A stretch of DNA of 64,000 nt from Chthonomonadaceae bacterium (GCA_965246955.1 CBDFGA010000004.1:1888100-1952099), one strand, 5' to 3'. Shown: positions 48,667 to 62,562, numbered from the stretch's first letter. Notes: generated by a model not told the origin, from the sequence alone. Program-made: numbers and translations.

Positions 48667-49464
48667 CTACTTCGTCGCCCGCCAGTAGCTGCGCAGGCCA
48701 ATCACGAGAACGATCAGCGCGGTCGCCGCCCAGATTGCTCCCCACAGCGTTGCGGGCAGGGCGTAGGTCTTCGCCATATTGCCTGCGTCGTTCTGCATCT
48801 CGCCGCCCGTCGTCAGCGAAAGCAGGATGCCGATGTCGCTGATGGCGTTCAGGCTGCACTGCACCGCGATAAAAGCGGCGGCAAAATTCGCGGCGGCGGG
48901 CGAAAGGAAACGCGCCAGCGCAAAACAGGCTGCCGATAGTCCAAACCCGACCGCCAGCGTAAAGGGATCGTGCCAGCCCCACAGCAGGGTAATCAGCGCA
49001 AGGGCGGCGGACGCGAAATACAGCGCCGTCCTTCCAGGAGCCTGCAATTTCCGCAGCCGCCCGACTTGCAGCATGACCGCGCCGAAAATCGCCGTGCCGA
49101 GGTAGCCCGCCGAATCAATGACCCACGCGCTCAGGAAATTTTGCGTCGCCATCGTGACGCCCTCGCCGTTGGGCTTAATCGCCAGCGAAGCGACGTGATT
49201 GCCCGTCAGCAGCGCCGCCAGCGCATGACCGCTCTCGTGAACAAACGTGATGAACAGCCGCAGCGGGTACAGCAAAACCGTGTTGATTCGGTACATCGTC
49301 AGTCCGACATTTGCCCCGAAGACATAACCCAGCACGAACGGCGCAAACATCAGGGCGAGCGCGGCAAGCGTCGCGCCGAGCAGCAGGTTCCGGGCCTTGC
49401 GTCCGTGTTCGCCCCGTCCCGCGTCCGTCGTGTTAATCAGCGTCAATGGATTTTCGTTTTGCAT
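48667..49464 (-). CDS. M50-family (site-2-protease-like) membrane metallopeptidase
   Basis: HESGHAL HExxH motif inside a TM helix, multiple TM segments. Confidence 0.7.
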   Translation of the reverse strand: MQNENPLTLINTTDAGRGEHGRKARNLLLGATLAALALMFAPFVLGYVFGANVGLTMYRINTVLLYPLRLFITFVHESGHALAALLTGNHVASLAIKPNGEGVTMATQNFLSAWVIDSAGYLGTAIFGAVMLQVGRLRKLQAPGRTALYFASAALALITLLWGWHDPFTLAVGFGLSAACFALARFLSPAAANFAAAFIAVQCSLNAISDIGILLSLTTGGEMQNDAGNMAKTYALPATLWGAIWAATALIVLVIGLRSYWRATK

Positions 49465-49589
49465 TTTTCCCTGCCTGTTCTCGTCAAAATCCGGTCTCAT
49501 TCTGTTATACGTAAATGCGGGGCCGTTCCGCGTCATAAGAATTGCGGCACAACAAAAAAACACTCCCCTGAAGGGAAAGAGGCGCGGTC

Positions 49590-49700
49590 CATGCAGAAAA
49601 GCCCCCTGCTTGAAAGACGCTTGATGTTGCGTGTTGGGTTGAATTGGATAATTATGAAACACCCGGCAACCCTGCCAAAACTGCCCGCATAAAAAATAAT
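49590..49700 (+). promoter_or_regulatory. Conserved leader element L, copy 1 (partial)
   Basis: gaaagacgcttg...ggataattatgaaacacccggcaaccctgccaaaactgcccgcataaaaaataatt. Near-identical to 50690-50772 and 57530-57600. Confidence 0.55.
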
Positions 49701-49725
49701 TCCATTTTTGTCACTATTCACCGCG

Positions 49726-49830
49726 TCCTTGCCACTCGCGCCGGAATGAAAAGCGTGGCGTCTCCCTCCGTCACTCTCTACGGCGCTCCGACCGGCGTTG
49801 TCCTGACGCTATCGAAAGCGGCGCAAGCGA
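49726..49830 (+). pseudogene. Orphan 3' fragment homologous to the C-terminus of the 53880-54530 gene
   Basis: TRAGMKSVASPSVTLYGAPTGVVLTLSKAA versus ARRAGMASVASPAITLYGANVGVVLTLAKAA. No upstream body or start. Confidence 0.45.
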
Positions 49831-49863
49831 AACTAAACGCCCTTGCCATGAAAAAAGCCGAAC

Positions 49864-49900
49864 GCGAAGAAAGGCTTCGCGTTCGGCCTATGCAATGCGG
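49864..49900. terminator. Bidirectional hairpin (gccgaacgcgaag/cttcgcgttcggc)
   Basis: 12-bp perfect stem. Paralogous hairpin at 55655-55692. Confidence 0.6.
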
Positions 49901-49909
49901 GCGCGGCGG

Positions 49910-50083
49910 TTACGATGCCTTGCGCTGTTCCTGAGCCATCTTTTGTTCTTCGCGCATGATCGCCGTTCGTTTCGCCCAGTACGCCAGTTCTTCTTCGGGC
50001 GTCATTCCTGCTGTGCGGGCCTGAATAATTTCCTGCGCCTTGTCTTTCATCTCTACGCAGTCAAACGCTTTGTTCTTTTTCAT
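49910..50083 (-). CDS. Small charged protein, partner of PIN protein (copy A)
   Basis: 57 aa, MKKNKAFDCVEMKDKAQEII...EEQKMAQEQRKAS. Paralogue at 55706-55876. Overlaps the PIN gene end. Confidence 0.5.
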   Translation of the reverse strand: MKKNKAFDCVEMKDKAQEIIQARTAGMTPEEELAYWAKRTAIMREEQKMAQEQRKAS

Positions 50084-50546
50084 TGGTAACCTCCGGCGGC
50101 GAATGAATCGCCACGCTGTTGTAGCCATACAGAGCATTGATGGCGTTGAAACGCTGAATCTTGGAGAACCGCACGATATGCCGAAAATTCCAACTGACAA
50201 TCAGTTCGCAGTCGTTAACAGTAGCGACAGCAACGTGCAGGGCATCGGCAGCAGATTTGGCGGCAAGGATACCCGCATCAAGATACGCTTTTCGCAACGC
50301 CTGCGCTTCGGCAGTAATGTCTACGGTTTCGGCGTAGGTTTTCATCTGCGCATACAACGCCTGCACTTCAAGCGGCGCAGTGGCAATCTCCTCGTCTAGA
50401 GGCGCCGTAACAACGAGCGCGAACTTCCCGCTTTTGACCTCTTCAAAAAAGGCGCGGCTTGCGGCCTCGAATTCCACGTCCACAATGCCGCCGAAAACGG
50501 TGGTGTCGGCATAGGCGCGAATGGAATGTTGGCGAAAGAGCATCAT
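50061..50546 (-). CDS. PIN-like (VapC-like) nuclease domain protein (copy A)
   Basis: Acidic residues at strand ends (AYADTTVF, FEEV, DEEI, DALHVAVA, SWNF) consistent with PIN fold. Toxin-first gene order. Confidence 0.5.
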   Translation of the reverse strand: MMLFRQHSIRAYADTTVFGGIVDVEFEAASRAFFEEVKSGKFALVVTAPLDEEIATAPLEVQALYAQMKTYAETVDITAEAQALRKAYLDAGILAAKSAADALHVAVATVNDCELIVSWNFRHIVRFSKIQRFNAINALYGYNSVAIHSPPEVTNEKEQSV

Positions 50547-50649
50547 TTCGTTCCTCTGCGACGCGCTGCTCTGCGTCCCATTTTCCTTTATTATACAGCA
50601 TAAAATCGCGCCGTCCTCACAAATCTTCCGCGCTACGCAAAATCTACCG

Positions 50650-50772
50650 CCGCAGAAACGCTTGCGGAATGGCGCGTCTGAAAGACGCTTGTTTTTTCTA
50701 GCCGGGTATGTATTGAATAGGAAACACCCGGAAACCCCGCCGAAACTGCCCGCATAAAAAATAATTTACTTT
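50650..50772 (+). promoter_or_regulatory. Conserved leader element L, copy 2 (full), upstream of PEP-CTERM gene
   Basis: cagaaacgcttgcggaatggcgcgtctgaaagacgcttgttttttc (hairpin + T-run) then ...gaaacacccggaaaccccgccgaaactgcccgcataaaaaataattt. Confidence 0.6.
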
Positions 50773-50867
50773 TTTTCGTTGAAAAGGTGTTTCCCGTTCA
50801 ATTTGGCACACATCTTGCAATATACAGACTTGACGAGCAAAATGCCGCCAAAAGGAAACCTACTGTC

Positions 50868-51782
50868 ATGAACCGAAACCTGAAGAACACCATCGCGCTC
50901 GGAGCGTTCGCCCTGCTCGGCCTTACCAGCGCCGCCAACGCGCAGAACGTCGTCAAAACCTTCAACTACACCGGCGACTATCAGACATTCACTGTTCCTT
51001 CCGATGTCAACAACATTTTCGTTCGGCTTTGGGGCGCAGGCGGGGGTAGTGGCGTCAGTAGCGCCGGTATCTTCGTCGGGGGAAGCGGCGGCGCATTTGT
51101 TTCCGGTGTTTTAAGTGTAACACCGGGCAGTACTTTTACTCTGCTTGTGGGCGGCGGCGGTGTTGGTAACAAAGGTGGCTTCGGTGGAGGCGGTTCCGGC
51201 GCCAGTGGAGGGGGCGGACGATCTGCGCTTATGGTCAATACAATCGAGTTGGTTGATGCGGGCGCAGGCGGCGGCGGAAACTTTAGTGGTGGAGCAGGCG
51301 GTGTATTGATAGGTCAGGCAGGCGGGGACAGTTTTGCGGGGGGCGGCGGTGGCGGCGGAACACAGAACGCAGGGGGCGCAGGTGGTCTTGGGCGGCCTGA
51401 TAACGGGCAGAGCGGCAGTCAATTTCAGGGAGGAAGCAATATCTTTTGCGGCGGCGGCGGCGGCGGTTATTATGGCGGTGGCAGCGGTGGGACGGACACT
51501 GATGGCAATGGTAGCGGCGGCGGCGGCGGTTCTTCCTACATTAGCGGCCTTGCGAGCATCGGAAATACGCAGGATGGCAATGGCGCTACTCCTGGAGGCA
51601 TGAGCGACCCCTACTATCTATCCAACGTCGGCGTGGGCGGAAACCATGCTAGTGGTGGCAATGGCGAAATTGTCTTTGCTTACTCGTCCTCTATTGCCGC
51701 CACGCCTGCCCCTTCCTCTCTGCTCGTTGCACTTGGTGGGATTGTTTCGGGCGTCGGGGTTCTTCGCAGGCGGCGCAAATAG
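50868..51782 (+). CDS. Glycine-rich secreted protein with PEP-CTERM-type sorting tail
   Basis: Signal peptide, GGxGG-rich body. C-terminus ATPAPSSLLVALGGIVSGVGVLRRRRK (TM + RRRRK). Confidence 0.8.
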   Translation: MNRNLKNTIALGAFALLGLTSAANAQNVVKTFNYTGDYQTFTVPSDVNNIFVRLWGAGGGSGVSSAGIFVGGSGGAFVSGVLSVTPGSTFTLLVGGGGVGNKGGFGGGGSGASGGGGRSALMVNTIELVDAGAGGGGNFSGGAGGVLIGQAGGDSFAGGGGGGGTQNAGGAGGLGRPDNGQSGSQFQGGSNIFCGGGGGGYYGGGSGGTDTDGNGSGGGGGSSYISGLASIGNTQDGNGATPGGMSDPYYLSNVGVGGNHASGGNGEIVFAYSSSIAATPAPSSLLVALGGIVSGVGVLRRRRK

Positions 51783-51804
51783 GTTCCATTCTTCGCGGGA
51801 TTTG

Positions 51805-51843
51805 GGGCCGCGCTTTTCCTCTGCTTTGGGGAAAGCGCGGCCC
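51805..51843 (+). terminator. Conserved terminator-like palindrome T (gggccgcgcttttcc..ggaaagcgcggccc), copy 1
   Basis: Recurs at 52485-52524 and 58706-58745. Variant at 54549-54585. Followed by cttgttg and a GTATAATA box. Confidence 0.6.
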
Positions 51844-51887
51844 TTGTTGCGGCGCATGGTATAATAAAAATAAATTGGGAGCGCGGC

Positions 51888-52175
51888 ATGAACTTCGAAT
51901 GGGACGAGGTTAAACGCAGCAGCAATATCGCCAAACATGGTCTGGATTTTGCCGATGCTTCCGCGATGTTCGGTCTTGCGATGTTCGTTGTTCCCGACGA
52001 CCGCGAAGACTACGGCGAACTGCGCTATCGGGGTATCGGACTGCTGAACGGCGCTTTCGCCGCCGTTGTATTCACCGAACCCGATGAGGAAACCATCCGC
52101 CTGATTTCGCTGCGACGGGCTACGCCACAGGAGCGACGCATTTATGAGCATGAAATCAAACAAAATGGATATTGA
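51888..52175 (+). CDS. BrnT-family toxin (DUF497), second type
   Basis: FEWDEVKRSSNIAKHGLDFADASAMF...IRLISLRRATPQERRIYE. Promoter ggtataataaaa 22 nt upstream. Confidence 0.75.
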   Translation: MNFEWDEVKRSSNIAKHGLDFADASAMFGLAMFVVPDDREDYGELRYRGIGLLNGAFAAVVFTEPDEETIRLISLRRATPQERRIYEHEIKQNGY

Positions 52176-52383
52176 CCCGGAAAACCCGCCGATGACGGAA
52201 GCGCAGGCCAGAAAAGGCTGGGTTCGCCTGCCGGACGGGACGCGGATCGTTCCGGCGCGAATGGACGCTCCGACGTATCAATGGTTTATGTCGCAGGGGC
52301 AGGACATTCCCGCGCAGATCGAAGCGGCGCTGCGCGATTACGCGGCGGCGCGGCGGCGCGAACAGCCGCCGCAATCGGCCTGA
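52144..52383 (+). CDS. DUF4415/BrnA-like antitoxin
   Basis: PENPPMTEAQARKG motif typical of DUF4415 partners of BrnT. Overlaps toxin 3' end. Confidence 0.55.
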   Translation: MSMKSNKMDIDPENPPMTEAQARKGWVRLPDGTRIVPARMDAPTYQWFMSQGQDIPAQIEAALRDYAAARRREQPPQSA

Positions 52384-52463
52384 CGCCCGCGTCCTCCTCC
52401 ATTCTGGTTGTTTTGATTGGGGCGGTTCCGCTTATCGGGGCGCTTCGCAGGCGGCGCAAATAG
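52383..52463 (+). pseudogene. Orphan PEP-CTERM sorting-tail remnant (TPASSSILVVLIGAVPLIGALRRRRK)
   Basis: Homologous to the tails at 51702-51782 and 58605-58685. Followed by the same palindrome T. No protein body upstream; the BrnT/antitoxin pair sits there instead. Confidence 0.65.
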
Positions 52464-52484
52464 GTTCGTTTCCTTGCGGGCTTT

Positions 52485-52524
52485 GGGACCGCGCTTTTCC
52501 TCTGCTTCGGGGAAAGCGCGGCCC
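52485..52524 (+). terminator. Palindrome T, copy 2
   Basis: gggaccgcgcttttcctctgcttcggggaaagcgcggccc. Downstream -10 gcgtataatag at 52546. Confidence 0.6.
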
Positions 52525-52604
52525 TTGTTGTTGCGGGCGGAAATAGCGTATAATAGAAGTGGAACATTCGCCTGCTTGCAGGCAACGACGAAAGGACGCC
52601 GCGC

Positions 52605-52853
52605 ATGACCCTTACCCTTACCCCGGAACTGGAATACGCCGTCAACGAAAAGGCAAAGCGGCAGGGCGTTCCGCCTGAACATCTCGCCATGCGGGAATTG
52701 CAACGCCTCTTTTTGCCCGCCGACGCATGGGAAATGCAGGTTCACCGCTATCAAAGCCTTGTGGAAAAAGATTTCTTAGGCGGCCTGACAGCGGAAGAAG
52801 CGCAGGAGTGCGAAAGGCTTGGAGCCGCGATTGACGCCGCCGAAACGCCCTGA
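52605..52853 (+). CDS. Small hypothetical protein preceding HNH endonuclease
   Basis: GAAAGGA SD. 82 aa, acidic C-terminus. Confidence 0.4.
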   Translation: MTLTLTPELEYAVNEKAKRQGVPPEHLAMRELQRLFLPADAWEMQVHRYQSLVEKDFLGGLTAEEAQECERLGAAIDAAETP

Positions 52854-52868
52854 AAGGACGCCTGCCGC

Positions 52869-53348
52869 ATGGCCCGTTTCCGCCGAACCGTCCCCGCCCC
52901 GATACTTGCCGCTCAAAAGAATTATCAGGCCTATCGCCCTTACGTTCGGCGCGACTTCGAAGAATGTTGCGCCTACTGCCTGCGTCACGAAGATTGGGCC
53001 GAAGCGGAGACTTTCGAGTTAGACCACCGCCGTCCGCAGTCCCTCTTTCCTGAAGACAAGTACGATTTTTATAATCTTTGCTACACCTGCCGGCGTTGCA
53101 ATATGAGAAAATTGCACTACTACCCCGACGCCGATTTGCTTGCCGCCGGAATTGGCTTTGTAGATTATTGCGTGGATGACTTCGCCACACATTTCGAGAT
53201 TGGCGATAATGACCTCTGGGTTCCGCAAACCGATTCCGCCCCCTTCACCCTGCGTATCCTGCGCCTCAACAGCGATTTTCTGGTTCGTCAGCGGCTTTTT
53301 CTGCGTGACAATGGTTTTGCCATAGACCGCCCCGCCCCGTCCCGCTAA
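52869..53348 (+). CDS. HNH endonuclease
   Basis: CAYCL...FELDHRRPQS...NLCYTCRRCNMRK (Cys4 + His/Asn HNH motif). Confidence 0.75.
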   Translation: MARFRRTVPAPILAAQKNYQAYRPYVRRDFEECCAYCLRHEDWAEAETFELDHRRPQSLFPEDKYDFYNLCYTCRRCNMRKLHYYPDADLLAAGIGFVDYCVDDFATHFEIGDNDLWVPQTDSAPFTLRILRLNSDFLVRQRLFLRDNGFAIDRPAPSR

Positions 53349-53385
53349 ACGCCCTGCGCGAAGGAAACGGCGCGGGGCGTTTACT

Positions 53386-53501
53386 CCGCCCTCCGCAATC
53401 GGGTACAATATATCGCTATTGAACAAAGACGTTCCGCCGCACTCATCTCCATTCATTTTGACGGCGAGGGCGAACAAAGGATACCGAAAGCGATGACCGC
53501 C
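53386..53501 (+). promoter_or_regulatory. Duplicate of the ppdK promoter/leader including its ATGAC start
   Basis: About 90% identical to 58752-58870 (ccgccctccgcaatcgggtacaatatatcgctattgaacaaagacgttccgccgcactc...gaacaaaggataccgaaagcgATGac). Here it leads only to a 12-codon ORF. Confidence 0.65.
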
Positions 53502-53879
53502 GGACTTGTAAGCCGCGCTGCAATCGCCTGAAACCGCGCCGGGAACGGCGAAAATCCTCTCCCGCTTTGGTTTGTTCTCCTCCTCAAGTTTGCTTCTTGT
53601 CTCTCCGATAATTTCCCTGTTAACGCGCCGGTTTGTTCCCGTCCTAAAGGCGATTTTGCCCGCGCCGCTGTCTTTGTTCTGCGTAATGCGGCCTTCGCGT
53701 TTCATCATGCGGGTGTCTCCTTCCGCGTCAGGAGCATGAAAGGCGGCGGGACTGTCTTCAACCGCCGCGCTATGAAATTCCACTGCGGCGGCGCGAAACG
53801 CAAAGGCCGCGCCGTAAGCGACAAAGACGGCGAGACAGCGAACGAAAACGGAACCGGCATCTATCCGAGGAGCAGGAAA

Positions 53880-54530
53880 ATGAGTAGCGATTATATGCCC
53901 AAAGGCAAGACCCAACTGCAAGCGTGGCTGAACAATTTCAACGCCGTCGCAAGCGCGAACATGGCGACATTGGGCCTGACCGCCGCTGATATTACCGCAT
54001 TGAGCGGAACGACGGGCGGCTTTACGTCCTCCGTTGCGGTGGTGAAAACGGCGAAGGCCAATCTCAAAGCGGCGACGCAGGGCGAAACCAGCGCAACCCG
54101 AACCGTGAACGCCACCGTGCGCGGCGTGGTGCGGCGCATCCAGTCCAACGCGGCGGTTTCGCCTTCGCTCAAAGGGTCGCTGGGCATCAATCCGCGCAAC
54201 GCCCCCAGAAATCACGCCCCGCCTGTGACCCCGACGGGACTGACGGCGGAAGGGTTCAGCACGGGAGTCAATCGCCTGAACTGGAACCGCGCCGGGAACA
54301 AACCCAACACGATTTTCGTGATTGAAGCGCAAAGCGGGGCCAGTACGCAATGGACGGAAGTCGGGAGCGTGACCGCTACCAAATTCGATCACGTCGGGCA
54401 GACTCCGGGCGTGAAGACGGCGTACCGGGTCACGGCGCGGCGGGCGGGCATGGCGAGCGTGGCAAGTCCCGCCATCACGCTCTACGGCGCGAACGTCGGC
54501 GTGGTTCTCACGCTGGCGAAGGCGGCGTAA
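53880..54530 (+). CDS. Hypothetical protein with FN3-like C-terminal region
   Basis: GAGGAG SD. C-terminal 30 aa are duplicated as the orphan fragment at 49726-49830. Confidence 0.45.
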   Translation: MSSDYMPKGKTQLQAWLNNFNAVASANMATLGLTAADITALSGTTGGFTSSVAVVKTAKANLKAATQGETSATRTVNATVRGVVRRIQSNAAVSPSLKGSLGINPRNAPRNHAPPVTPTGLTAEGFSTGVNRLNWNRAGNKPNTIFVIEAQSGASTQWTEVGSVTATKFDHVGQTPGVKTAYRVTARRAGMASVASPAITLYGANVGVVLTLAKAA

Positions 54531-54644
54531 AGCGTCCGGGTTTTCAGGAACGAAGCCGCGCCTTTTCAATTTGGCGCGGCCCTTGTTGCGGACGGCGAAA
54601 ATCGTGTATAATAGGAGCAAGAAATCTTTGACGCAGGAGCGGAA

Positions 54645-55253
54645 ATGATGCCGACGTATCAAGACGAATCAACGCAATTCCTACAGCGGGCCGAAGCGGT
54701 TTACAATGAGAAACTCCGCGCCACGCTCGATACGCCCGAAAATCGCGGCAAATTCCTCGCGCTTGAACCCGACAGCGGCGCTTACGAAGTCCGCGACGAA
54801 CTGCGTCAGGCGGCGGATTGGGTTCGCGCCTGTTGTCGCGGCAAGCGCGTTTACGCCACGCGCATCGGGCAGGAAACGTTTCCCAATCGCGGCTGCTTTC
54901 CCTGTATCCTCACGGCGCTACACGCGGCGGAAAACAAGAACGCGCCCTGCGGCGAGGAGGCTTTCCGCCCGCGAAACAATCCCGCGCCAACGGAACCGGA
55001 AGAACTGGCGAAGGTCAATCGGCGCGGCAGGGACGTTTACGAAACAAAACTTCGCGCCGCGCTGGACACGCCGGAGAACTACGGCAAAACCCTTGTGATT
55101 GACCCCGACAGCGCGGATTACGAAATGGGCGAGAACCATTACGCCCTGCTTGATGCCCTGCGCATTCGCCACCCGGACAAACTTTCCTACTCCATGCGGA
55201 TTGGCTATGCGAAAATGGCCCATGCGCTCGGCGCCCGGAGCGTGAGAAAGTAG
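54645..55253 (+). CDS. Tandem-repeat small protein, upstream partner of retropepsin-like protease
   Basis: Internal duplication VYNEKLRATLDTPENRGKFLALEPDSGAYEV / VYETKLRAALDTPENYGKTLVIDPDSADYEM. Promoter gtgtataatagg 30 nt upstream. Single-repeat paralogue at 63315-63611. Confidence 0.6.
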   Translation: MMPTYQDESTQFLQRAEAVYNEKLRATLDTPENRGKFLALEPDSGAYEVRDELRQAADWVRACCRGKRVYATRIGQETFPNRGCFPCILTALHAAENKNAPCGEEAFRPRNNPAPTEPEELAKVNRRGRDVYETKLRAALDTPENYGKTLVIDPDSADYEMGENHYALLDALRIRHPDKLSYSMRIGYAKMAHALGARSVRK

Positions 55254-55625
55254 ATGATTACCGCCCCCGTCGCAGAGGACTTCACGGTTCGCTTTTACAT
55301 CAAATTCATCGGCGATAACGGAATGGAATTGGACTTCTCCGTTCTGTTCGATACGGGGTTCAATCGCCATATCGCCCTGCCCCGCGACATCATAGACGCG
55401 CTTGGCTATCCCGAAATCGGCGCGGTGGAAATCACGCTGGCGGACGGGGCGCCGCAAAACGTCACGCTTCACAATGGCAAAATGGTGTGGGACGGGCAGG
55501 AAGTCGGCGTCACGATCCATTGTCTGGCGGGCGAGGGACTGCTTGGAACGCTTCAAATCGAAAACTACCTTGTGACAATTCCCGCCCGCGTCGGCGAAAC
55601 CGTGACCTTCGCCCTCATGCCATAG
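55254..55625 (+). CDS. Retropepsin-like (clan AA) aspartic protease domain protein
   Basis: LFDTGFNRHIALP contains the D-T-G catalytic triad. About 120 aa, single-domain. Start overlaps upstream stop (TAGATG). Paralogue at 62941-63330 (VIDTGFNGTFTLP). Confidence 0.6.
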   Translation: MITAPVAEDFTVRFYIKFIGDNGMELDFSVLFDTGFNRHIALPRDIIDALGYPEIGAVEITLADGAPQNVTLHNGKMVWDGQEVGVTIHCLAGEGLLGTLQIENYLVTIPARVGETVTFALMP

Positions 55626-55654
55626 CCCCCAATCCCCGCCCTGAATAGAAAAGC

Positions 55655-55692
55655 CGAACGCGAAGCCCTTCTTCGCGTTCGGCTCATAATCT
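55655..55692. terminator. Bidirectional hairpin (gccgaacgcgaag/cttcgcgttcggc), copy 2
   Basis: Shared by the convergent aspartic-protease and PIN modules. Confidence 0.6.
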
Positions 55693-55705
55693 ACGGGCGC
55701 GGCGG

Positions 55706-55876
55706 TTACGACGCCTTGCGCTGTTCCAGCAGGGCCTGTTGCTTTTCGCGCAGTTCCCGGTTCCGCCGGTTCCAGTAAGCCGCTTCTTCTTCCGGCGTCA
55801 TGGTTTCCAGTTTCGCCTGCAATTTTGCCGCGCCTTTGCGCTTCATCTCCACACAATCGAAAGGCTTATTCTCCAT
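55706..55876 (-). CDS. Small charged partner protein of PIN (copy B)
   Basis: MENKPFDCVEMKRKGAAKLQ...EKQQALLEQRKAS, paralogue of 49910-50083. Confidence 0.5.
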   Translation of the reverse strand: MENKPFDCVEMKRKGAAKLQAKLETMTPEEEAAYWNRRNRELREKQQALLEQRKAS

Positions 55877-56339
55877 CTTTGATAACCTCCGGCGGCGAAT
55901 GAATCGCCACACTCCGATAGCCGTACAAGGCATTGACGGCGTTGAAACGCTGAATTTTGGAATAGCGCACAATGTGATTGAAGTTCCAGCTGACAATCAG
56001 TTCGCAATCGGCAACGCTCGCCGTCGCGACGTGCAGGGCATCCGTTGCGGATTTAGCGGTCAGGATGCCCGCCTTGAGATATTCTGCCTGCAAAGCCCTC
56101 GCTTCGTCCGTGACCAGCACAACTTCCGCGTAAGTTACCATCTCCTGAAACAAATTCTGCACTTTGAGCGGCGCGTCGGCGATTTCGTCTTCCACAGGCG
56201 CCGCAATCACAAGCGCAAAACCTCCGTTGGGCGCCTCATCGAAAAAGGCGCGGCTTGCCGTCTCGAACTCAACATCCACAATGCCGCCAAAGACCGTTGT
56301 TTCCGCATAGACGCGAATGGGATGCTGGCGAATGTTCAT
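55866..56339 (-). CDS. PIN-like nuclease domain protein (copy B)
   Basis: About 70% identical to copy A. Promoter box ctgtagaataaagga on the minus strand upstream. Confidence 0.5.
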   Translation of the reverse strand: MNIRQHPIRVYAETTVFGGIVDVEFETASRAFFDEAPNGGFALVIAAPVEDEIADAPLKVQNLFQEMVTYAEVVLVTDEARALQAEYLKAGILTAKSATDALHVATASVADCELIVSWNFNHIVRYSKIQRFNAVNALYGYRSVAIHSPPEVIKDGE

Positions 56340-56474
56340 GGTTTCAATCCTCTCCGGCGCGATACCCTGCGTCCCATTTTCCTTTATTCTACAGCATAAG
56401 TCCGCGCCGCCGTTCCGGGCGGCGAAAATGGAGTATAATAAAGCAGAGAAATCTTCGGACGGGAGAATGGACGC

Positions 56475-56714
56475 ATGGCAACGGCAACTATTGAAACGAT
56501 TGAAGAACGCCTCGTGACGCTGGAAACGCGCCTTGACGCCTTGCAGGGACAAGCGCTTGCTTGCCTGCCGCGCACAGCCCCTACGAAAACAAAGCGCGGC
56601 TGGAAGGCGATTGTCGGCACGTTCGCGAACGACCCGCTTTATGATGAAGCGATGCGATTAGGCCGCGAATGGCGCGAAAACCGATTTGATGAAACGGACG
56701 CGGAGACGCGATAA
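56475..56714 (+). CDS. Orphan small hypothetical protein under cassette promoter
   Basis: gagtataataaag box 30 nt upstream. 79 aa, coiled-coil N-terminus. Confidence 0.35.
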   Translation: MATATIETIEERLVTLETRLDALQGQALACLPRTAPTKTKRGWKAIVGTFANDPLYDEAMRLGREWRENRFDETDAETR

Positions 56715-56741
56715 ACGCTTGTTTTCTGTTTCGTCCTGCTT

Positions 56742-57008
56742 CTACGCCGCTCGTTCCGCTTTGGGTTCTGCCGGGACAAGAAAGACGCGAATGTTTTCCT
56801 GCGCGAAAATGGCGTCCTCGGCCCGCCCCAATTCCTCGTAGTATTCGTATAGTTTCGGCGGTTCGTAGTCGGGCTGAACGGGAACGCGCCAGACAGACTC
56901 ATCGCGGCGGATTCGCGCTTCAATTATGTCCAGATTGGAACCGCCGGGGTGAATGGCGCTCAAATGCTTGCGGGCGGCGCGGGCGACCTGCTGAATTTCC
57001 TCACTCAT
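56742..57008 (-). CDS. Small acidic protein, downstream partner of HEPN protein
   Basis: 88 aa. 8-nt overlap with the HEPN gene. Confidence 0.35.
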   Translation of the reverse strand: MSEEIQQVARAARKHLSAIHPGGSNLDIIEARIRRDESVWRVPVQPDYEPPKLYEYYEELGRAEDAIFAQENIRVFLVPAEPKAERAA

Positions 57009-57387
57009 CTTCTACCTCCAGGGTTTCATAGACGCGATAAACATCTCGAATACAGGCAACTGCAACGGCCCGCGTAACATCCGCCCCGGGACGGTAATCG
57101 GCGTCTTCGCGGGCGCGGCGCAGGCGAATAATGGTTTGCCGAAGCCGATACCGCCCCGCTTTCGGAACGCGGGGCATATGACTTAATACGAGTTCCGGCA
57201 GTTGATGGTGCGCGGGATTGTTCCAATCGGCGGGAAACGAGACTTTCTCACGGATTAACTCGGCGGTGATAAGGCAGTAAACGGCATAGTAAGCGCTGCT
57301 CATACTGCGCCGATAACAGCCGCCGTTCATCAAAAGTTGAGCGGACTTCAAGCAATCCCGACTCATTTCTTCCCACGTCCCCATCAA
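57001..57387 (-). CDS. HEPN-domain protein (putative RNase toxin or nucleotide-sensor)
   Basis: Helical N-terminus (SAQLLMNGGCYRRSMSSAYYAVYCLITA). Rx4-6[HY]-like motif RLRRAREDADYR. Minus-strand promoter box tgtataataaagga upstream. Confidence 0.5.
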   Translation of the reverse strand: MMGTWEEMSRDCLKSAQLLMNGGCYRRSMSSAYYAVYCLITAELIREKVSFPADWNNPAHHQLPELVLSHMPRVPKAGRYRLRQTIIRLRRAREDADYRPGADVTRAVAVACIRDVYRVYETLEVEDE

Positions 57388-57494
57388 TCGTTCTCCATGA
57401 AAACAGAAACGCCCGAACGCCCGCGCTTATCCTTTATTATACAGCATAAATCCGCGCCGCCGTTCCAAATTTTCCACCCTGTGCAAAATTCACC

Positions 57495-57605
57495 GCCGCA
57501 GAAACGCTTGCGGAATGGCGCGTCTGAAAGACGCTTGTTTTTTCCTGCCGGGCTGAATTTGGTAATTATGAAACTCCCGGCAACCCCGGCAATAAAAAAA
57601 ATTTC
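57495..57605 (+). promoter_or_regulatory. Conserved leader element L, copy 3, upstream of NHL PEP-CTERM gene
   Basis: cagaaacgcttgcggaatggcgcgtctgaaagacgcttgttttttc...ggtaattatgaaactcccggcaaccccggcaataaaaaaaattt. Confidence 0.6.
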
Positions 57606-57725
57606 TCCTGATGAAACTATCAGCCCGCCGCGCTCGTAAAATCCATGAGGCAAGCAAATAAAGGCCCTGCGCCCGCTTCCCGCGATTTCACCGGCAGTAA
57701 CGATTCAGGAAAGGTAGACCCGAAA

Positions 57726-58685
57726 ATGCGCAACCTCGTCCGCAACGCCTTCGCGCTCATAGCGCTTGCCCTGCTCGGCACAGCAAACGCCAATGCGCAA
57801 ACATACGTTTTTGACAGCAACATAGGCAATCCCTATAACGGTAGCAATAGCAACGGGCACCTGTTTTACCCTAGAGGTGTCGCGGTAGACGGTAACGGTA
57901 ACGTTTTTGTCGCAGACGGTTCCGATGGTGGTGTTGAGGAATTCAACAGCGGTGGAACGTTCATCCGCAATATCGGCGTTTCAGGCAGTGGTCAGTTGGA
58001 TTACGCTGGTAGTGTCGCTGTTGATGGCAACGGCAATTTATATGTGGCGGACGGTACCAACAACCGAATTGTGGAGTTTAATAATAGCGGCGCGTTCGTC
58101 CGCAATATCGGTACTTCTGGTACAAGCAATGGACAGTTGATCTCGCCTACCAGTGTTGTACTAGATAACAGCGGGAATCTGTATGTCGCGGACTCTGGCA
58201 ACAATCGCATAGAGGAATTTAACCAAAATGGCGGATTTGTTCGCGCCATTAGTAATACGTCCTTCCAAAATCCACAGGGCGTCGCACTAGACAAAAGCGG
58301 CAATATCTACATCGTAGACAATGGCATTGATGAATTGAATAGTAGCGGCACGTTTGTTCGTTACATCGGGGCTGGAAAGGTGTTCGATCCTAGCGGCGTC
58401 ATCTTAGATCGCAGTGGTAATATCTATGTTGCAGATTTGGATACGCAACTTTCGGAGTTCAATAGCGCAGGCAACTTTGTCCAAACTGTCGGCTTTGGAT
58501 ATTTGGTTAGGCCTTTTGGTCTTGCGTTTGATGGAAGCAACAATCTTTACGTTGGGGACATAAACAACCAGTACGTGACAAAGTTCCGTAACACTTCCGC
58601 CGCTACTCCTGCGCCTTCCTCTGTTCTGATTGTTCTGCTTGGGGCGGTTCCGCTTGTCGGGGTGCTTCGCAGGCGGCGCAAGTAG
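57726..58685 (+). CDS. NHL-repeat beta-propeller protein with PEP-CTERM-type sorting tail
   Basis: Signal peptide. Six NHL-like repeats (GN.YVAD..NNRI.EF). Tail ATPAPSSVLIVLLGAVPLVGVLRRRRK. Confidence 0.85.
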   Translation: MRNLVRNAFALIALALLGTANANAQTYVFDSNIGNPYNGSNSNGHLFYPRGVAVDGNGNVFVADGSDGGVEEFNSGGTFIRNIGVSGSGQLDYAGSVAVDGNGNLYVADGTNNRIVEFNNSGAFVRNIGTSGTSNGQLISPTSVVLDNSGNLYVADSGNNRIEEFNQNGGFVRAISNTSFQNPQGVALDKSGNIYIVDNGIDELNSSGTFVRYIGAGKVFDPSGVILDRSGNIYVADLDTQLSEFNSAGNFVQTVGFGYLVRPFGLAFDGSNNLYVGDINNQYVTKFRNTSAATPAPSSVLIVLLGAVPLVGVLRRRRK

Positions 58686-58705
58686 GCTTGTTTCCTCGCA
58701 GGCTT

Positions 58706-58745
58706 TGGGGCCGCGCTTTTCCTCGGCTTTGGGGAAAGCGCGGCC
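58706..58745 (+). terminator. Palindrome T, copy 3
   Basis: ggggccgcgcttttcctcggctttggggaaagcgcggccc. Confidence 0.6.
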
Positions 58746-58751
58746 CTTGTT

Positions 58752-58865
58752 GTTTCCGCCCTCCGCAATCGGGTACAATATATCGCTATTGAACAAAGAC
58801 GTTCCGCCGCACTCCTTCTTTATGCATATTTTGACGGCGAGGACGAACAAAGGATACCGAAAGCG
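58752..58865 (+). promoter_or_regulatory. ppdK promoter/leader (original of the 53386-53501 duplicate)
   Basis: gggtacaatat -10-like box. gaacaaaggataccg SD-like stretch before ATG. Confidence 0.55.
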
Positions 58866-61523
58866 ATGACGAAACGAGTTTACCTGTTTGAAGAAGGCGA
58901 TAAGTCCATGCGCGACCTGCTCGGCGGCAAGGGCGCAAACCTCGCCGAAATGACCAAAATCGGCCTGCCCGTTCCCCCCGGCTTCACCATCACCACCGAC
59001 ACCTGCAACGAATACTACGCCAACGGCAAAACCCTGCCCGCCCCCCTCATGGACGAAGTTCTCACCGCCTTGTCCGACGTGGAGAACAAACTCGGCAAGA
59101 AGTTCGGCGAGGTTGGCAATCCTCTCCTGCTTTCCGTGCGTTCCGGCGCCCGCTTTTCCATGCCCGGCATGATGGACACCGTGCTGAACCTCGGCCTCAA
59201 CGACGCCATTATCGCCCAACTCGTGACCGTGACCGACCCGCGCTTTGTCTACGATTCCTACCGCCGCTTCATTATGATGCTCTCCGACGTGGCCTATTCC
59301 GACAAGTTCGACCACATGAGCAAGCACGATTTCGAGCATCTTTTCGCCGACCTCAAGACCGAACTCGGCGTGAAGGAAGACCTCGAAGTCAGCGCGGACG
59401 GCCTCAAGACCCTGTGCGAGCGCTACAAGGCGCACGTCCTCGCGCACATCGGAAGCGAATTTCCGCAAGACCCCACCATTCAGTTGCAGGCCGCGATTGA
59501 GGCCGTGTTCCGCTCGTGGAACAACGAACGCGCCTTCATCTACCGCCGCCGCGAAAAAATCTCCGACGACATCGGAACCGCCGTCAACGTGCAAAGCATG
59601 GTCTTCGGCAACATGGGCGAGGACTGCGGCACGGGCGTGGCCTTCACCCGCAACGCTTCCACCGGCGAGAACGTGGTCTTTGGCGAATACCTGATGAACG
59701 CGCAGGGCGAAGATGTGGTTGCGGGCGTCCGAACGCCCATGCCCATTGAGCAGCTTGCCAGCCAGAACCCGGAAATCTACAAGCAGTTTGATGAAGTGTG
59801 CAAGACGCTCGAAGGCCACTACAAGGATATGCAAGACATCGAGTTCACCATTGAGCATAACAAACTCTTCATCCTGCAATGCCGAAGCGGAAAGCGCACC
59901 GGCCCCGCCGCCGTGAAAATCGCGGTAGATCAAGTCGCTGAAGGCCTAATCACGAAAGAGGAAGCGATTGCCCGCGTGGAGCCGGAACTCCTCAACCACT
60001 GCCTGCTTCCGGTAATTCCGCAGAACACGAAGTACAACGTCCTCGCCAAAGGACTGCCCGCCGGCCCCGGTGCGGCGACGGGCATTGCGATTTTTGACGC
60101 GGAGCGCGCGGCGGAACTCGGCAAGGGCGGTTTAGGCCAGAAGGTCATTCTCGTTCGCGCCGACACCAGCCCCGACGACCTCAAAGGGATGCTGGCGGCG
60201 CAGGGCGTCCTGACGGAAAAGGGCGGCATGACCTCCCACGCGGCGCTCGTGGCGCGCGGCTTCGGCATCCCCACGGTTGCGGGCTGTTCCGAAATCGCCG
60301 TTGACGCGGGCAAGCGGCAGTTCACGGTAAACGGGCAGACCGTGAAAGAGGGCGACGAAATTTCGCTCAACGGCACCCTGGGCGAAGTCATTCTTGGCGG
60401 CGTCCCGGTGGAAGACGCGAAACTGACCGGCGAATTCGGCACGTTCCTCGGCTGGGCGGACGAAATGCGAACGCTCGGAATCCGCACGAACGCCGACACT
60501 CCCAAAGACACCGAACTCGCCATCAAATTCGGCGCTGAAGGCATTGGCCTGTGCCGCACGGAGCATATGTTCTTCGCCGAAGAGCGCCGCCCCGTCGTAC
60601 AGCGCATGATCCTCGCCAAAGACGAGGCCACCCGGCAGGCCGCGCTTGACGAACTGCTTCCCTTTCAGCGCGAGGACTTCAAGGGCATTTTCGAGGCGCT
60701 CGAAGGCCGTCCCGCCACCATCCGCCTGATTGACCCGCCCCTCCATGAGTTCCTGCCCAACATGGAAGAACTCATCGAGGAGATCGCCACCCTCCACGCG
60801 CAGGGCAAGTCCGATCCCGCCAAAGAGGAAATGCTCACGGCGGTCAAGTCCATGCACGAGATCAACCCGATGATGGGACTGCGCGGCTGCCGCCTCTCGA
60901 TTGTGTTCCCCGGCATCGTCGTGATGCAGACGCGGGCCATCCTCGAAGGCGCGGCGGCGGTCATCAAAGCGGGCGGCGCGGCCCACCCGGAGATTATGAT
61001 CCCCCTCGTCGGACACGTCAACGAACTCAAGACCGTGCGCGAAGGGCTGGAAAAGACAGCGAAAGCGGTGGAAGCGGAACAGGGCATCACGATCCCCTAC
61101 CAGTTCGGCACCATGATTGAAGTGCCTCGCGGCGCCCTGACCGCGGATGAAATCGCCCCCGAAGCGGAGTTCTTCTCGTTCGGAACGAATGACCTGACGC
61201 AGATGACGTTCGGCTTCTCCCGCGACGACAGCGACAAGTTCCTCAAGCCCTATGTGGCGCAGAAAATCCTTGCCGTTGATCCGTTCGAGAGCATTGACCA
61301 AAGCGGCGTGGGTCTGCTGATGGAGATGGCGGTGGCGAAAGGGCGGGGCGTGAAGCCGGGGCTGAAGATGGGCATTTGCGGCGAACACGGCGGCGAACCG
61401 CGTTCCATCGCCTTCTGCCACAAGATCGGCCTCAACTACGTGAGTTGTTCGCCCTACCGGGTTCCGATAGCGCGGCTTGCGGCGGCGCAGGCGGCCCTCG
61501 GCAAAGGCGTCAGCGACAAGTAG
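58866..61523 (+). CDS. ppdK: Pyruvate, phosphate dikinase
   Basis: 885 aa. PEP-utilising enzyme mobile His domain (GGMTSHAALVARGFGIP), N-terminal ATP-grasp, C-terminal TIM barrel (GICGE). Confidence 0.95.
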   Translation: MTKRVYLFEEGDKSMRDLLGGKGANLAEMTKIGLPVPPGFTITTDTCNEYYANGKTLPAPLMDEVLTALSDVENKLGKKFGEVGNPLLLSVRSGARFSMPGMMDTVLNLGLNDAIIAQLVTVTDPRFVYDSYRRFIMMLSDVAYSDKFDHMSKHDFEHLFADLKTELGVKEDLEVSADGLKTLCERYKAHVLAHIGSEFPQDPTIQLQAAIEAVFRSWNNERAFIYRRREKISDDIGTAVNVQSMVFGNMGEDCGTGVAFTRNASTGENVVFGEYLMNAQGEDVVAGVRTPMPIEQLASQNPEIYKQFDEVCKTLEGHYKDMQDIEFTIEHNKLFILQCRSGKRTGPAAVKIAVDQVAEGLITKEEAIARVEPELLNHCLLPVIPQNTKYNVLAKGLPAGPGAATGIAIFDAERAAELGKGGLGQKVILVRADTSPDDLKGMLAAQGVLTEKGGMTSHAALVARGFGIPTVAGCSEIAVDAGKRQFTVNGQTVKEGDEISLNGTLGEVILGGVPVEDAKLTGEFGTFLGWADEMRTLGIRTNADTPKDTELAIKFGAEGIGLCRTEHMFFAEERRPVVQRMILAKDEATRQAALDELLPFQREDFKGIFEALEGRPATIRLIDPPLHEFLPNMEELIEEIATLHAQGKSDPAKEEMLTAVKSMHEINPMMGLRGCRLSIVFPGIVVMQTRAILEGAAAVIKAGGAAHPEIMIPLVGHVNELKTVREGLEKTAKAVEAEQGITIPYQFGTMIEVPRGALTADEIAPEAEFFSFGTNDLTQMTFGFSRDDSDKFLKPYVAQKILAVDPFESIDQSGVGLLMEMAVAKGRGVKPGLKMGICGEHGGEPRSIAFCHKIGLNYVSCSPYRVPIARLAAAQAALGKGVSDK

Positions 61524-61564
61524 ACAACGAAGCAAAACGTACAAATCTGCTGTATAATGAAAGG

Positions 61565-61600
61565 ACGCGGGAGGCATTTCCCGCGTCCTTTGCAAGTTTA
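61565..61600 (+). terminator. Hairpin terminator after ppdK
   Basis: aaaggacgcggga..tcccgcgtccttt. Confidence 0.6.
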
Positions 61601-61642
61601 TGCGTCTCCGGCGCGTTCTGCGCGTGGCGAAAAGGAAGGTTG

Positions 61643-61852
61643 ATGCCCGAAAAAGTTGCTGTTAGTTTTCTCGAATACCTGCTTTCCAAGTCCACGATTT
61701 CGTTGTCTACGGCAAAACAGGCCCACGAAATTATCGCTGAGGTTCGAGGTATTTTACGCAATCCCGAACGTAATGGCGGCGTAACATACAGCCTGTATTT
61801 CGGAGATCAGGCGGGCGCTCCGTTTTATCGGTTGGCGTGGACAACAATTTGA
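61643..61852 (+). CDS. Small hypothetical protein (first gene of an overlapping pair)
   Basis: AAGGAAGG SD. 16-nt overlap with next ORF. Confidence 0.4.
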   Translation: MPEKVAVSFLEYLLSKSTISLSTAKQAHEIIAEVRGILRNPERNGGVTYSLYFGDQAGAPFYRLAWTTI

Positions 61853-62259: not shown

Positions 62260-62262
62260 ACC

Positions 62263-62562
62263 ATGAGCAATAAAACGCTGACAGAGCCGACGACATCAAG
62301 CAGGCAGCAACGCCAATGGCTGCCCGTGACGGTTACGGGCATTCAAAAAAGTGAGCCGCCGCGTCTGGAGTTTTATTCCATGATGACCCTGCGGGACGGG
62401 CAGCAAAAACCCTGTCCCGGAACGGCAAGGATTGAGGACGAAGATTTGTTGCGCCGTCTGTGGGCGGAAATGTTATCAGGAGACAAGTTTCGGATATACA
62501 TTCGGACTGATTGGAGCAGCGAGGACATTCCTGTTGTCTTGCTTGATTTTTGTCGGCTGTGA
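62263..62562 (+). CDS. Hypothetical protein
   Basis: ATG 4 nt after upstream stop. No motif. Confidence 0.35.
   Translation: MSNKTLTEPTTSSRQQRQWLPVTVTGIQKSEPPRLEFYSMMTLRDGQQKPCPGTARIEDEDLLRRLWAEMLSGDKFRIYIRTDWSSEDIPVVLLDFCRL

What the first reader, a model, noticed from the sequence alone, without database searches (positions are those of the whole stretch)
51888..52463. BrnT/DUF4415 TA pair has replaced the body of a PEP-CTERM gene, leaving an orphan sorting tail
Immediately after the antitoxin stop (52383) comes a 27-codon remnant TPASSSILVVLIGAVPLIGALRRRRK*. It is clearly homologous to the C-terminal sorting tails of the two intact PEP-CTERM genes (51782, 58685). The same palindrome T follows it. 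No signal peptide or protein body precedes it. This is direct evidence that the TA cassette inserted into, or recombined with, a PEP-CTERM gene at a defined junction.
Basis: seen in the sequence. Interest (0 to 1): 0.65.

Follow-up and report, generated by a model that had tools for sequence, protein, structure and literature searches.

The report
Orphan PEP-CTERM tail beside toxin-antitoxin pair
A dead 80-base leftover of the end of a surface-protein gene, with that gene's terminator hairpin, sits directly after an intact BrnT/BrnA toxin-antitoxin operon; it is a recombination scar in a heavily reshuffled gene island, real but ordinary.

Summary
Window 52383-52463 encodes TPASSSILVVLIGAVPLIGALRRRRK*, with no signal peptide or protein body before it. 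Together with the spacer and hairpin up to 52532, it is DNA-homologous to the 3' ends of the two intact PEP-CTERM-like genes (87% to 58605-58754, BLAST E 7e-47; 78% to 51702-51851). An independently assembled close strain (L001) carries the identical relic, so it is not an assembly artefact.

The toxin-antitoxin pair is intact. BrnT matches PF04365. The antitoxin is a divergent BrnA, shown only transitively, and keeps its native C-terminus and stop codon.

The same cassette in L002, L003 and L004 ends with stop, a 25-27 nt spacer and a same-family hairpin, with no tail. The junction is therefore specific to the window/L001 lineage. It maps to 52383-52391 (ACGCCCGCG), where homology from both sides overlaps.

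The relic is probably decaying: the motif reads PAS instead of PAP, and it has 5 nonsynonymous versus 1 synonymous private changes.

The best reading is one illegitimate, microhomology-assisted recombination that joined an intact brnTA operon to the 3' end of a PEP-CTERM gene. It happened in a mosaic island upstream of ppdK that holds other such leftovers. Interest is low to moderate.

The parts
50868..51782 (+). Intact glycine-rich PEP-CTERM-like gene upstream of the TA pair (signal peptide, body, tail at 51702-51782)
   Evidence: ORF and translation; weak Gly_rich_2 match; tail found by six-frame scan
51804..51844 (+). Hairpin 1 (terminator-like) of tail-hairpin module 1 (module 51702-51851)
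   Evidence: Pattern match; RNA fold of 51783-51854 gives -39.7 kcal/mol, z -4.4; repeat family D1
51857..51865 (+). TGGTATAAT, an extended -10-like element upstream of brnT; this hairpin/promoter/brnT junction is also present in L001 and L002
   Evidence: Read from sequence; function inferred
51888..52175 (+). brnT toxin gene (95 aa), intact
   Evidence: PF04365 E 3.5e-22; PDB 3u97_A BrnT E 2e-11
52144..52383 (+). Antitoxin gene (79 aa), a divergent BrnA, overlapping brnT by 32 nt; native C-terminus and stop
   Evidence: No direct Pfam hit. Profile search finds small homologues, 9 of 10 of which match PF14384. C-terminus conserved in P0001 and P0002 and in L003 DNA
52383..52391 (+). Junction: ACGCCCGCG, where TA-side homology (L002 to 52391, L003 to 52387) overlaps tail-family homology (from 52382/3)
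   Evidence: BLAST end points; 3' flanks. The microhomology is not significant on its own by shuffle test
52383..52463 (+). Orphan PEP-CTERM-like tail (26 codons plus TAG), non-coding relic; motif reads PAS instead of PAP
   Evidence: Private changes 5 nonsynonymous to 1 synonymous, against about 6:15 among functional tails, Fisher p=0.027 (hand count from the sequences; test)
52485..52524 (+). Hairpin 2, the probable current terminator of the brnTA operon
   Evidence: RNA fold of 52464-52535 gives -34.6 kcal/mol, z -3.8; terminator-like hit; pattern match
52525..52554 (+). TTGTTG, 18 nt, TATAAT: promoter-like stretch for the next operon; this hairpin-arm/promoter unit recurs at 54574-54617 and in L018
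   Evidence: Repeat D11; L018 alignment; function inferred
52605..53348 (+). Two-gene cassette: an 82-aa protein (no family match) and an HNH endonuclease (159 aa). It occurs in another context in L018, where homology starts at window 52510
   Evidence: PF01844
53385..53497 (+). Orphan copy of the ppdK promoter/5' region including ATGAC, a second relic of the same kind
   Evidence: Repeats D8 and D10; 93% to 58755-58870; also present in L001
58605..58754 (+). Tail-hairpin module 3 at the end of the intact NHL-repeat PEP-CTERM-like gene (ORF 57645-58685; likely start near 57726). Closest copy in the window to the orphan

Best explanation
The 81 nt at 52383-52463, plus the spacer and hairpin to about 52532, are a dead fragment of the 3' end of a PEP-CTERM-type gene: the sorting-signal codons, the stop, and the 3'UTR with its terminator hairpin.

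One illegitimate recombination event joined this fragment to the 3' flank of an intact brnT-brnA operon. The join lies in a 9-nt stretch (ACGCCCGCG) that resembles both partners. The other end of the exchange was probably carried by ordinary homology, that is, homology-facilitated illegitimate recombination. The event happened in the common ancestor of the window strain and strain L001.

The fragment is not translated and no longer works as a sorting signal. Its hairpin most likely now terminates brnTA transcription, and the TTGTTG...TATAAT stretch behind it drives the next operon.

Shown:
- homology of the fragment to PEP-CTERM gene 3' ends;
- the position of the junction;
- intactness of the TA pair;
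- absence of the tail from all other copies of the cassette;
- inheritance of the relic in a second strain.

Inferred:
- the recombination mechanism;
- the terminator and promoter roles;
- the direction of the event.

On direction, I lean (about 45%) to the TA pair being resident upstream of ppdK, with the tail arriving as the ragged left end of incoming DNA that carried the HNH cassette.
For: - Homology runs through the tail, stop, spacer and hairpin.
- The identical relic is present in the independently assembled strain L001.
- The antitoxin C-terminus and its TGA stop are conserved in L002 and L003, so the cassette is complete up to its stop.
- The cassette in L002 and L003 (directly upstream of ppdK) and in L004/L005/L008 (upstream of a radical-SAM gene) has stop, a 25-27 nt spacer and a same-family hairpin, with no tail.
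- Those spacers show no significant similarity to a tail, so they are not decayed tails.
- Junction end points are 52387/52391 from the TA side and 52382/3 from the tail side.
- The private substitutions of the orphan are 5 nonsynonymous to 1 synonymous and destroy the motif proline. Functional tails differ mostly synonymously (sequences; Fisher p=0.027).
- The island holds other relics of the same type: the ppdK 5' region at 53385-53497, and a PEP-CTERM leader at 49611-49712 followed by a C-terminal fragment at 49752-49826.
- In L004 a second, independent junction fuses a PEP-CTERM tail to the last 17 codons of brnT at an Arg-codon microhomology.

For the lean on direction:
- The orphan ppdK 5' copy 1 kb downstream carries L003-like variants (TTTACTCC, ATGACC). 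This fits an original TA-hairpin-ppdK arrangement split by an insert.
- The HNH cassette occurs elsewhere (L018), with homology starting inside the hairpin's 3' arm.
Against: - No donor or ancestral arrangement was found, so the direction is not demonstrated.
- The TA cassette is much more similar between lineages than ppdK. BrnT is 83% and BrnA 91% identical to L003 by tblastn, against 65% for PPDK. The TA pair is therefore itself horizontally exchanged and could be the incomer.
- The 9-nt overlap is imperfect in the relatives (8/9 in L002, 7/9 in L003) and not significant by shuffling (p about 0.1).
- The arguments from single-base variants (hairpin loop C, GGGACC) are weak and point in opposite directions.
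- L001-L003 appear to be low-coverage contigs; I read the 2x-4x in their record names as coverage.
- The terminator and promoter roles are untested.
Confidence: 0.7

Rival explanations
1. A resident PEP-CTERM gene stood upstream of the HNH cassette. Incoming DNA carrying brnTA, probably together with its upstream PEP-CTERM partner and hairpin, replaced that gene's leader and body. The right-hand join was made just past the antitoxin stop at the tail start, leaving the tail.
For: - The TA pair is flanked by two tail-hairpin modules in direct orientation.
- The TA cassette is horizontally mobile: it is far more conserved than ppdK between lineages.
- The segment 51697-52287 is a 7%-divergent patch between the window and L001, so TA-bearing DNA has been re-imported since the two split.
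- PEP-CTERM gene followed by ppdK is a recurring arrangement.
- The bodies of PEP-CTERM genes at this locus are exchanged between close strains.
Against: - No strain with the intact gene was found.
- The left junction is shared with L002, which lacks the tail, so a TA-only insertion cannot have made both junctions.
- The L003-like ppdK 5' relic 1 kb downstream is left unexplained.
Confidence: 0.3
2. In-place deletion. A complete PEP-CTERM gene once lay between brnA and the HNH cassette. A deletion between two short ACGCCCGCG-like repeats then removed the TA terminator, the leader, the signal peptide and the body.
For: - One copy of the short repeat remains at the junction, as expected for a deletion between microhomologies.
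- L004 shows a deletion of exactly this style between a tail and brnT.
Against: It needs two events, an insertion of the gene and then a deletion. No intermediate was seen in any relative.
Confidence: 0.15
3. The tail is still functional: translated as the 60-aa ORF 52281-52463, or fused to the antitoxin by frameshifting, to give a small membrane-anchored peptide.
For: The reading frame, the hydrophobic helix, RRRRK and the stop codon are all intact.
Against: - By inspection of the sequence, there is no Shine-Dalgarno-like sequence before the ATG at 52281 and no slippery site near the antitoxin stop.
- The N-terminal half of the ORF is out-of-frame antitoxin sequence.
- The motif proline is lost and the private changes are mostly nonsynonymous.
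- The tail is absent from every other copy of the cassette.
- No homologous protein was found.
Confidence: 0.03
4. The tail-hairpin module is an autonomous small mobile or repeat element (MITE/REP-like or attC-like) that inserted itself behind the antitoxin.
For: - The orphan starts within about 10 nt of where homology between unrelated PEP-CTERM genes begins, so it looks like a discrete unit.
- Hairpins of this family occur only in this island within the window.
Against: - There are only three full copies in 64 kb, and the other two are the in-frame ends of genes.
- By inspection there are no terminal inverted repeats and no target duplications.
- The hairpin is a perfect stem without attC-type core sites (sequence).
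- Exact-pattern scans of the genome and metagenome collections found no copy.
Confidence: 0.04

Closest known systems
Gene remnants left by homology-facilitated illegitimate recombination and by microhomology-mediated deletion in bacterial genomic islands (from my own knowledge of the literature, e.g. de Vries and Wackernagel 2002; not read here)
   Same: A sharp junction lies in a few shared bases. One partner is truncated with no start codon or body. The remnant is inherited by sister strains and is decaying. Similar ragged leftovers lie nearby.
   Different: The remnant happens to be a complete, still open sorting-signal module with its terminator, which appears to have been taken over as the terminator of the neighbouring operon. 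The mechanism is inferred, not observed.
Orphan C-terminal modules of cdiA and rhs loci (displaced toxin tips; from my own knowledge)
   Same: A C-terminal gene fragment lacks the N-terminal body and translation start. It keeps homology to full-length family members and could recombine with them.
   Different: Those orphans encode variable toxin tips with immunity genes and lie downstream of the parent gene. Here the orphan is the conserved, non-variable end (a sorting signal), has no immunity partner, and lies after a toxin-antitoxin operon.
PEP-CTERM / exosortase sorting signals (TIGR02595; Haft et al. 2006, from my own knowledge)
   Same: A proline-containing motif, a hydrophobic helix and an Arg-rich cluster at the extreme C-terminus. 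The intact neighbours have signal peptides.
   Different: The motif is T-P-A-P (T-P-A-S in the orphan). HMM scores fall just below the cut-off. The orphan has no protein in front of it.
BrnT/BrnA type II toxin-antitoxin system (PF04365 / PF14384; PDB 3U97)
   Same: The toxin matches the family model and the solved BrnT structure's sequence. A small antitoxin gene lies downstream and overlaps it.
   Different: The antitoxin is too divergent for a direct PF14384 match and is linked only through intermediate homologues. Activity was not tested.

Membership tests
PEP-CTERM sorting domain (TIGR02595) | Match to the domain model above its curated cut-off | tested here: inconclusive
   The orphan ORF scores 15.7 bits and the NHL gene tail 15.5 bits, against a cut-off of 16. 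The glycine-rich gene gave no hit at E<=0.1.
PEP-CTERM sorting domain (TIGR02595) | P-E-P-type motif, then a hydrophobic helix, then a basic cluster, at the very C-terminus | tested here: inconclusive
   The helix and RRRRK are present. The motif is TPAP in the intact genes and TPAS in the orphan.
PEP-CTERM sorting domain (TIGR02595) | The domain sits at the end of a secreted protein with an N-terminal signal peptide | tested here: not met
   Nothing but the antitoxin gene, in another frame, precedes the orphan. The two intact neighbours do have signal-peptide-like N-termini (by inspection).
PEP-CTERM sorting domain (TIGR02595) | An exosortase is encoded in the same genome | not tested
   The rest of the window was not annotated and the genome is not available.
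BrnT/BrnA type II toxin-antitoxin | The toxin belongs to the BrnT family (PF04365) | tested here: met
   E 3.5e-22, 79 bits against a cut-off of 34.5; 3u97_A E 2e-11.
BrnT/BrnA type II toxin-antitoxin | The antitoxin belongs to BrnA (PF14384, formerly DUF4415) and is encoded just downstream | tested here: inconclusive
   Direct scans are negative even at E<=10. A profile of the antitoxin and its relatives finds small proteins at E 1e-11 to 4e-5, and 9 of 10 scanned match PF14384 at E<=0.01, 7 of them above the curated cut-off. The gene overlaps brnT by 32 nt.
BrnT/BrnA type II toxin-antitoxin | Ribonuclease toxicity that is neutralised by the antitoxin | not testable with these tools
   This needs experiments.
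Intrinsic (rho-independent) terminator | A stable GC-rich stem-loop followed by a U-tract | tested here: inconclusive
   The stem is strong (-34.6 kcal/mol, z -3.8). The tail CUUGUUGUU is only moderately U-rich. The consensus scan flags hairpins 2 and 3.
Integron attC site / gene cassette | An imperfect palindrome bounded by RYYYAAC and GTTRRRY core sites, with an integron integrase nearby | tested here: not met
   By inspection the hairpins are near-perfect stems and the flanks (..TTTGGGG / CCCTTGTTG..) do not fit the core sites. An integrase was not searched for.

The most novel reading that the evidence does not exclude
In this lineage the conserved ends of PEP-CTERM genes may act as portable recombination handles. 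These ends are the leader plus signal peptide on one side, and the tail plus terminator hairpin on the other. Through them, unrelated protein bodies and neighbouring cassettes (brnTA, HNH) would be swapped between strains. The lineage is probably Chthonomonadaceae / Armatimonadota, judged only from distant relatives. On this reading the orphan tail is a by-product and a possible landing pad. Homologous recombination between the two tails flanking brnTA would excise the TA pair and regenerate an intact gene.
Probability: 0.15. Interest if true: 0.55.

Novelty: new member of a known kind. Interest (0 to 1): 0.3.

Why it matters
The junction is mapped to 9 nt and dated to one lineage. It is a clean example of how toxin-antitoxin cassettes and surface-protein genes are reshuffled in a little-studied lineage, probably Armatimonadota. 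It shows that the conserved 3' end of PEP-CTERM genes, including the terminator, is where homology between unrelated genes begins, and that rearrangement breakpoints recur there. It also warns annotators that short intact-looking sorting-signal ORFs can be scars. It does not reveal a new molecular system.

Tried and rejected
Searches for the source genome or more relatives:
- Exact-protein look-ups of BrnT, the antitoxin, PPDK and the glycine-rich protein found nothing, so the source genome is not in the collection.
- Hairpin DNA patterns found nothing in genome contigs or metagenome contigs.
- Profile-based locus scans found only distant TA relatives, including a Chthonomonadaceae MAG at 51% identity.
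- A search with the orphan tail peptide for an intact parent gene failed: 32 aa was too short, and 40 aa gave no hit.
- Contexts of HNH homologues (L018-L020) show no PEP-CTERM gene upstream.

Tests that gave nothing:
- Rfam has nothing above threshold in 49000-59500.
- I tested whether the short spacers after the antitoxin in L002, L003 and L004 are decayed tails. Similarity is not significant.
- I tested whether 53493 onward is the displaced original TA flank. Similarity is not significant.
- I considered special conservation of the orphan, since it has 0 differences from L001. I rejected this because most of the island is equally identical and divergence comes in patches.

Readings rejected:
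- Assembly artefact: L001 carries the identical relic.
- attC/integron, autonomous repeat element, and translated mini-protein: see the rival explanations.

Full report
**What is there.** The antitoxin ORF ends with TGA at 52381-52383. Starting at 52383, in another frame, are 26 codons plus TAG that read TPASSSILVVLIGAVPLIGALRRRRK* and end at 52463. A six-frame scan of the 64-kb window finds only three such tails. Two are the C-termini of intact genes: a glycine-rich protein (50868-51782) and an NHL-repeat protein (ORF 57645-58685). The third is this orphan.

At DNA level, 52383-52532 is 87% identical to 58605-58754 (E 7e-47). Its 3' 96 nt are 90.6% identical to 51754-51849. The similarity runs through the stop codon, a roughly 20-nt spacer and a 40-nt hairpin. 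The 35-nt hairpin pattern occurs three times against zero expected in shuffles. The hairpins fold at -35 to -40 kcal/mol, with z-scores of -3.8 to -4.8. Nothing resembling a signal peptide or protein body precedes the tail. The 60-aa ORF in its frame is out-of-frame antitoxin sequence.

**The toxin-antitoxin (TA) pair.** The toxin is BrnT (PF04365, E 3.5e-22; PDB 3u97_A, E 2e-11). The antitoxin gives no direct Pfam or PDB hit. A profile of it and its relatives does find small proteins in a 1.8-billion-protein library. Of ten such proteins scanned, nine match PF14384 (BrnA, formerly DUF4415), seven of them above the curated cut-off. The tails score just under the PEP-CTERM cut-off (15.5-15.7 vs 16) and carry TPAP rather than PEP. 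I call them PEP-CTERM-like.

**Relatives.** The source genome is not in the collections. Antitoxin homologues led to informative contigs.

- L001 is a close strain: its PPDK is 99% identical. It has the identical orphan tail and hairpin after its antitoxin stop, so the feature is real and inherited.
- L002 and L003 are much more distant organisms: L003's PPDK is 65% identical. They carry the same cassette directly upstream of ppdK. BrnT is 83-84% identical, and BrnA is 91% (L003) and 75% (L002).
- L004, L005 and L008 carry the cassette upstream of a radical-SAM gene.

In all of these other copies the antitoxin stop is followed by a 25-27 nt spacer and a hairpin of the same family, with no tail. 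Those spacers show no significant similarity to a tail. The antitoxin C-terminus and TGA are conserved. The cassette in the window is therefore complete, and the tail is a derived addition to its 3' flank.

**The junction.** Homology of the window to L002 ends at 52391 and to L003 at 52387. Homology to the tail family begins at 52382/3. The two tracts overlap in ACGCCCGCG (52383-52391). L002 matches this 9-mer at 8/9 positions and L003 at 7/9. By shuffling, this microhomology is not significant on its own. I treat it as compatible with, not proof of, a microhomology-assisted join.

The left side of the cassette (hairpin 1, TGGTATAAT, brnT) is colinear in the window, L001 and L002. It therefore predates the tail junction. 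A simple insertion of the TA pair alone into a gene cannot have produced both junctions.

**State of the relic.** I counted codon changes by hand from the sequences.

- Compared with four functional tails, the orphan has six private codon changes: five nonsynonymous and one synonymous. They include loss of the second motif proline (PAP to PAS).
- Functional tails differ from each other mostly synonymously, at roughly 6 nonsynonymous to 15 synonymous (Fisher p=0.027).
- The orphan's tail codons are 66-69/81 identical to these tails, which share 72-74/81 among the three closest.

This fits relaxed constraint, on small numbers. The orphan is identical between the window and L001, but that is not informative. 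The two strains are almost identical over most of the island and differ only in patches.

**Context.** The region 49.6-58.9 kb is a mosaic.

- A PIN-like TA pair is duplicated (49853-50613 and 55649-56409, 73% identical).
- PEP-CTERM gene leaders occur three times (49611-49712, 50679-50777, 57525-57592).
- A copy of the ppdK promoter/5' region including ATGAC sits alone at 53385-53497.
- A leader at 49611-49712 is followed by a C-terminal fragment of a relative of the 264-aa gene (49752-49826).

Between the window and L001, DNA is colinear from exactly the start of tail 1 (51697) to the signal-peptide region of the NHL gene (57799). It is colinear again from the start of tail 3 (58591). The bodies of both PEP-CTERM genes are unrelated. 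The start of the tail is thus a recurrent boundary of homology.

In L004, an NHL PEP-CTERM gene runs in frame from ...VPEPGGVALLFSIAAVGALRTRR into the last 17 residues of BrnT. The toxin is deleted and the antitoxin is intact. This is a second, independent junction between a tail and this cassette.

**Mechanism and direction.** All viable histories need one illegitimate join at 52383-52391. They differ in what was resident.

Three points favour a resident TA pair:
- The cassette's ancestral 3' end lacks a tail at two different loci.
- The orphan ppdK 5' copy 1 kb downstream carries L003-like variants (TTTACTCC, ATGACC), as if an original TA-hairpin-ppdK arrangement had been split.
- The HNH cassette travels with part of an upstream hairpin in L018, where homology starts at window 52510.

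- The cassette is clearly exchanged horizontally: it is far more similar between lineages than ppdK.
- The segment 51697-52287 is a re-imported patch, 7% divergent from L001.
- A PEP-CTERM gene directly upstream of ppdK is a common arrangement.

No relative with an intact gene at the site, and no donor arrangement, was found. I therefore rate the general explanation at 0.7: a dead 3' fragment joined to an intact brnTA operon by one illegitimate recombination, with its hairpin now likely serving as the operon's terminator. I leave the direction open, with a lean towards a resident TA pair.

**Comparison and novelty.** This is a recombination scar of a known kind. It resembles the orphan C-terminal modules of cdiA and rhs loci only in being a headless C-terminal fragment that keeps homology to full genes. 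Unlike them, it is the conserved end of the gene, not the variable one. It is not an attC site or an autonomous repeat. Rfam has nothing there. The taxonomic setting rests only on distant TA relatives in a Chthonomonadaceae MAG. The feature is of modest interest. The more interesting lead is the population-level swapping of PEP-CTERM gene bodies between conserved ends.

Noticed in passing
window 53385-53497: A solitary copy of the ppdK promoter/5' region, including the ATG and 2-3 further bases. It is 93% identical to 58755-58870, with exact stretches of 60 nt. It sits between the HNH terminator and unrelated sequence and is also present in L001. This is a second headless/tailless relic in the island.
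   Followed up: partly
window 49611-49826: A third copy of the PEP-CTERM gene leader (49611-49712) is not followed by a signal peptide. It is followed instead by a fragment (49752-49826) homologous to the C-terminus of the 264-aa gene at 53736-54530.
   Followed up: partly
window 51697-57799 and 58591-62321 vs L001: Two strains with 94-100% identical flanks carry unrelated protein bodies in both PEP-CTERM-like genes. Homology stops at the signal-peptide region and resumes exactly at the tail.
   Followed up: partly
L004 2-541 (also L005-L007): An NHL-repeat PEP-CTERM gene (canonical VPEP tail) is fused in frame to the last 17 codons of brnT. The toxin body is deleted and the antitoxin is intact.
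   Followed up: yes
L003 3424-3916: Both brnT and the antitoxin carry in-frame stop codons (TGG to TGA at codon 5; CAG to TAG). They lie about 350 nt after a tRNA gene and directly upstream of ppdK. The contig appears to be low coverage (2x in its record name), so sequencing errors are possible.
   Followed up: no
window 51884-52391 vs L002/L003; ppdK 58866-61523: The TA cassette is 82-89% identical in DNA to L002 and L003, while the adjacent ppdK is only 69-72% identical (65% at protein level for L003). The cassette has been exchanged horizontally yet sits upstream of ppdK each time.
   Followed up: partly
window 49853-50613 and 55649-56409 (minus strand): A PIN-like toxin and its small partner are duplicated at 73% identity, 5796 nt apart. 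Each lies divergently upstream of a PEP-CTERM-like gene and shares the intergenic promoter region (50581-50739 and 57427-57588).
   Followed up: no
window 32706-32981 and 37535-38035: Two further BrnT paralogues (39% identity). The second lies in a single 166-aa ORF that also contains the antitoxin-like part, so it may be a toxin-antitoxin fusion or a frameshift.
   Followed up: no
window 52570-52583: The palindrome GCCTGCTTGCAGGC lies between the TATAAT and the start codon of the 82-aa gene. It is conserved, with one change, in L018. It may be an operator for autoregulation of the 82-aa/HNH operon.
   Followed up: no
window 56742-57387 (minus) vs L002 7387-8002 and L003 6859-7519: A HEPN protein and its partner lie upstream of ppdK in the window. 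In L002 and L003 they lie downstream of ppdK in the opposite orientation, which indicates a larger rearrangement around ppdK.
   Followed up: no
window 54556-54617: A fourth, shorter hairpin of the same family (AAGCCGCGCC..GGCGCGGCCC), followed by the same CTTGTTG...GTATAAT stretch, lies after the 264-aa gene. In this window the family is confined to the island.
   Followed up: partly
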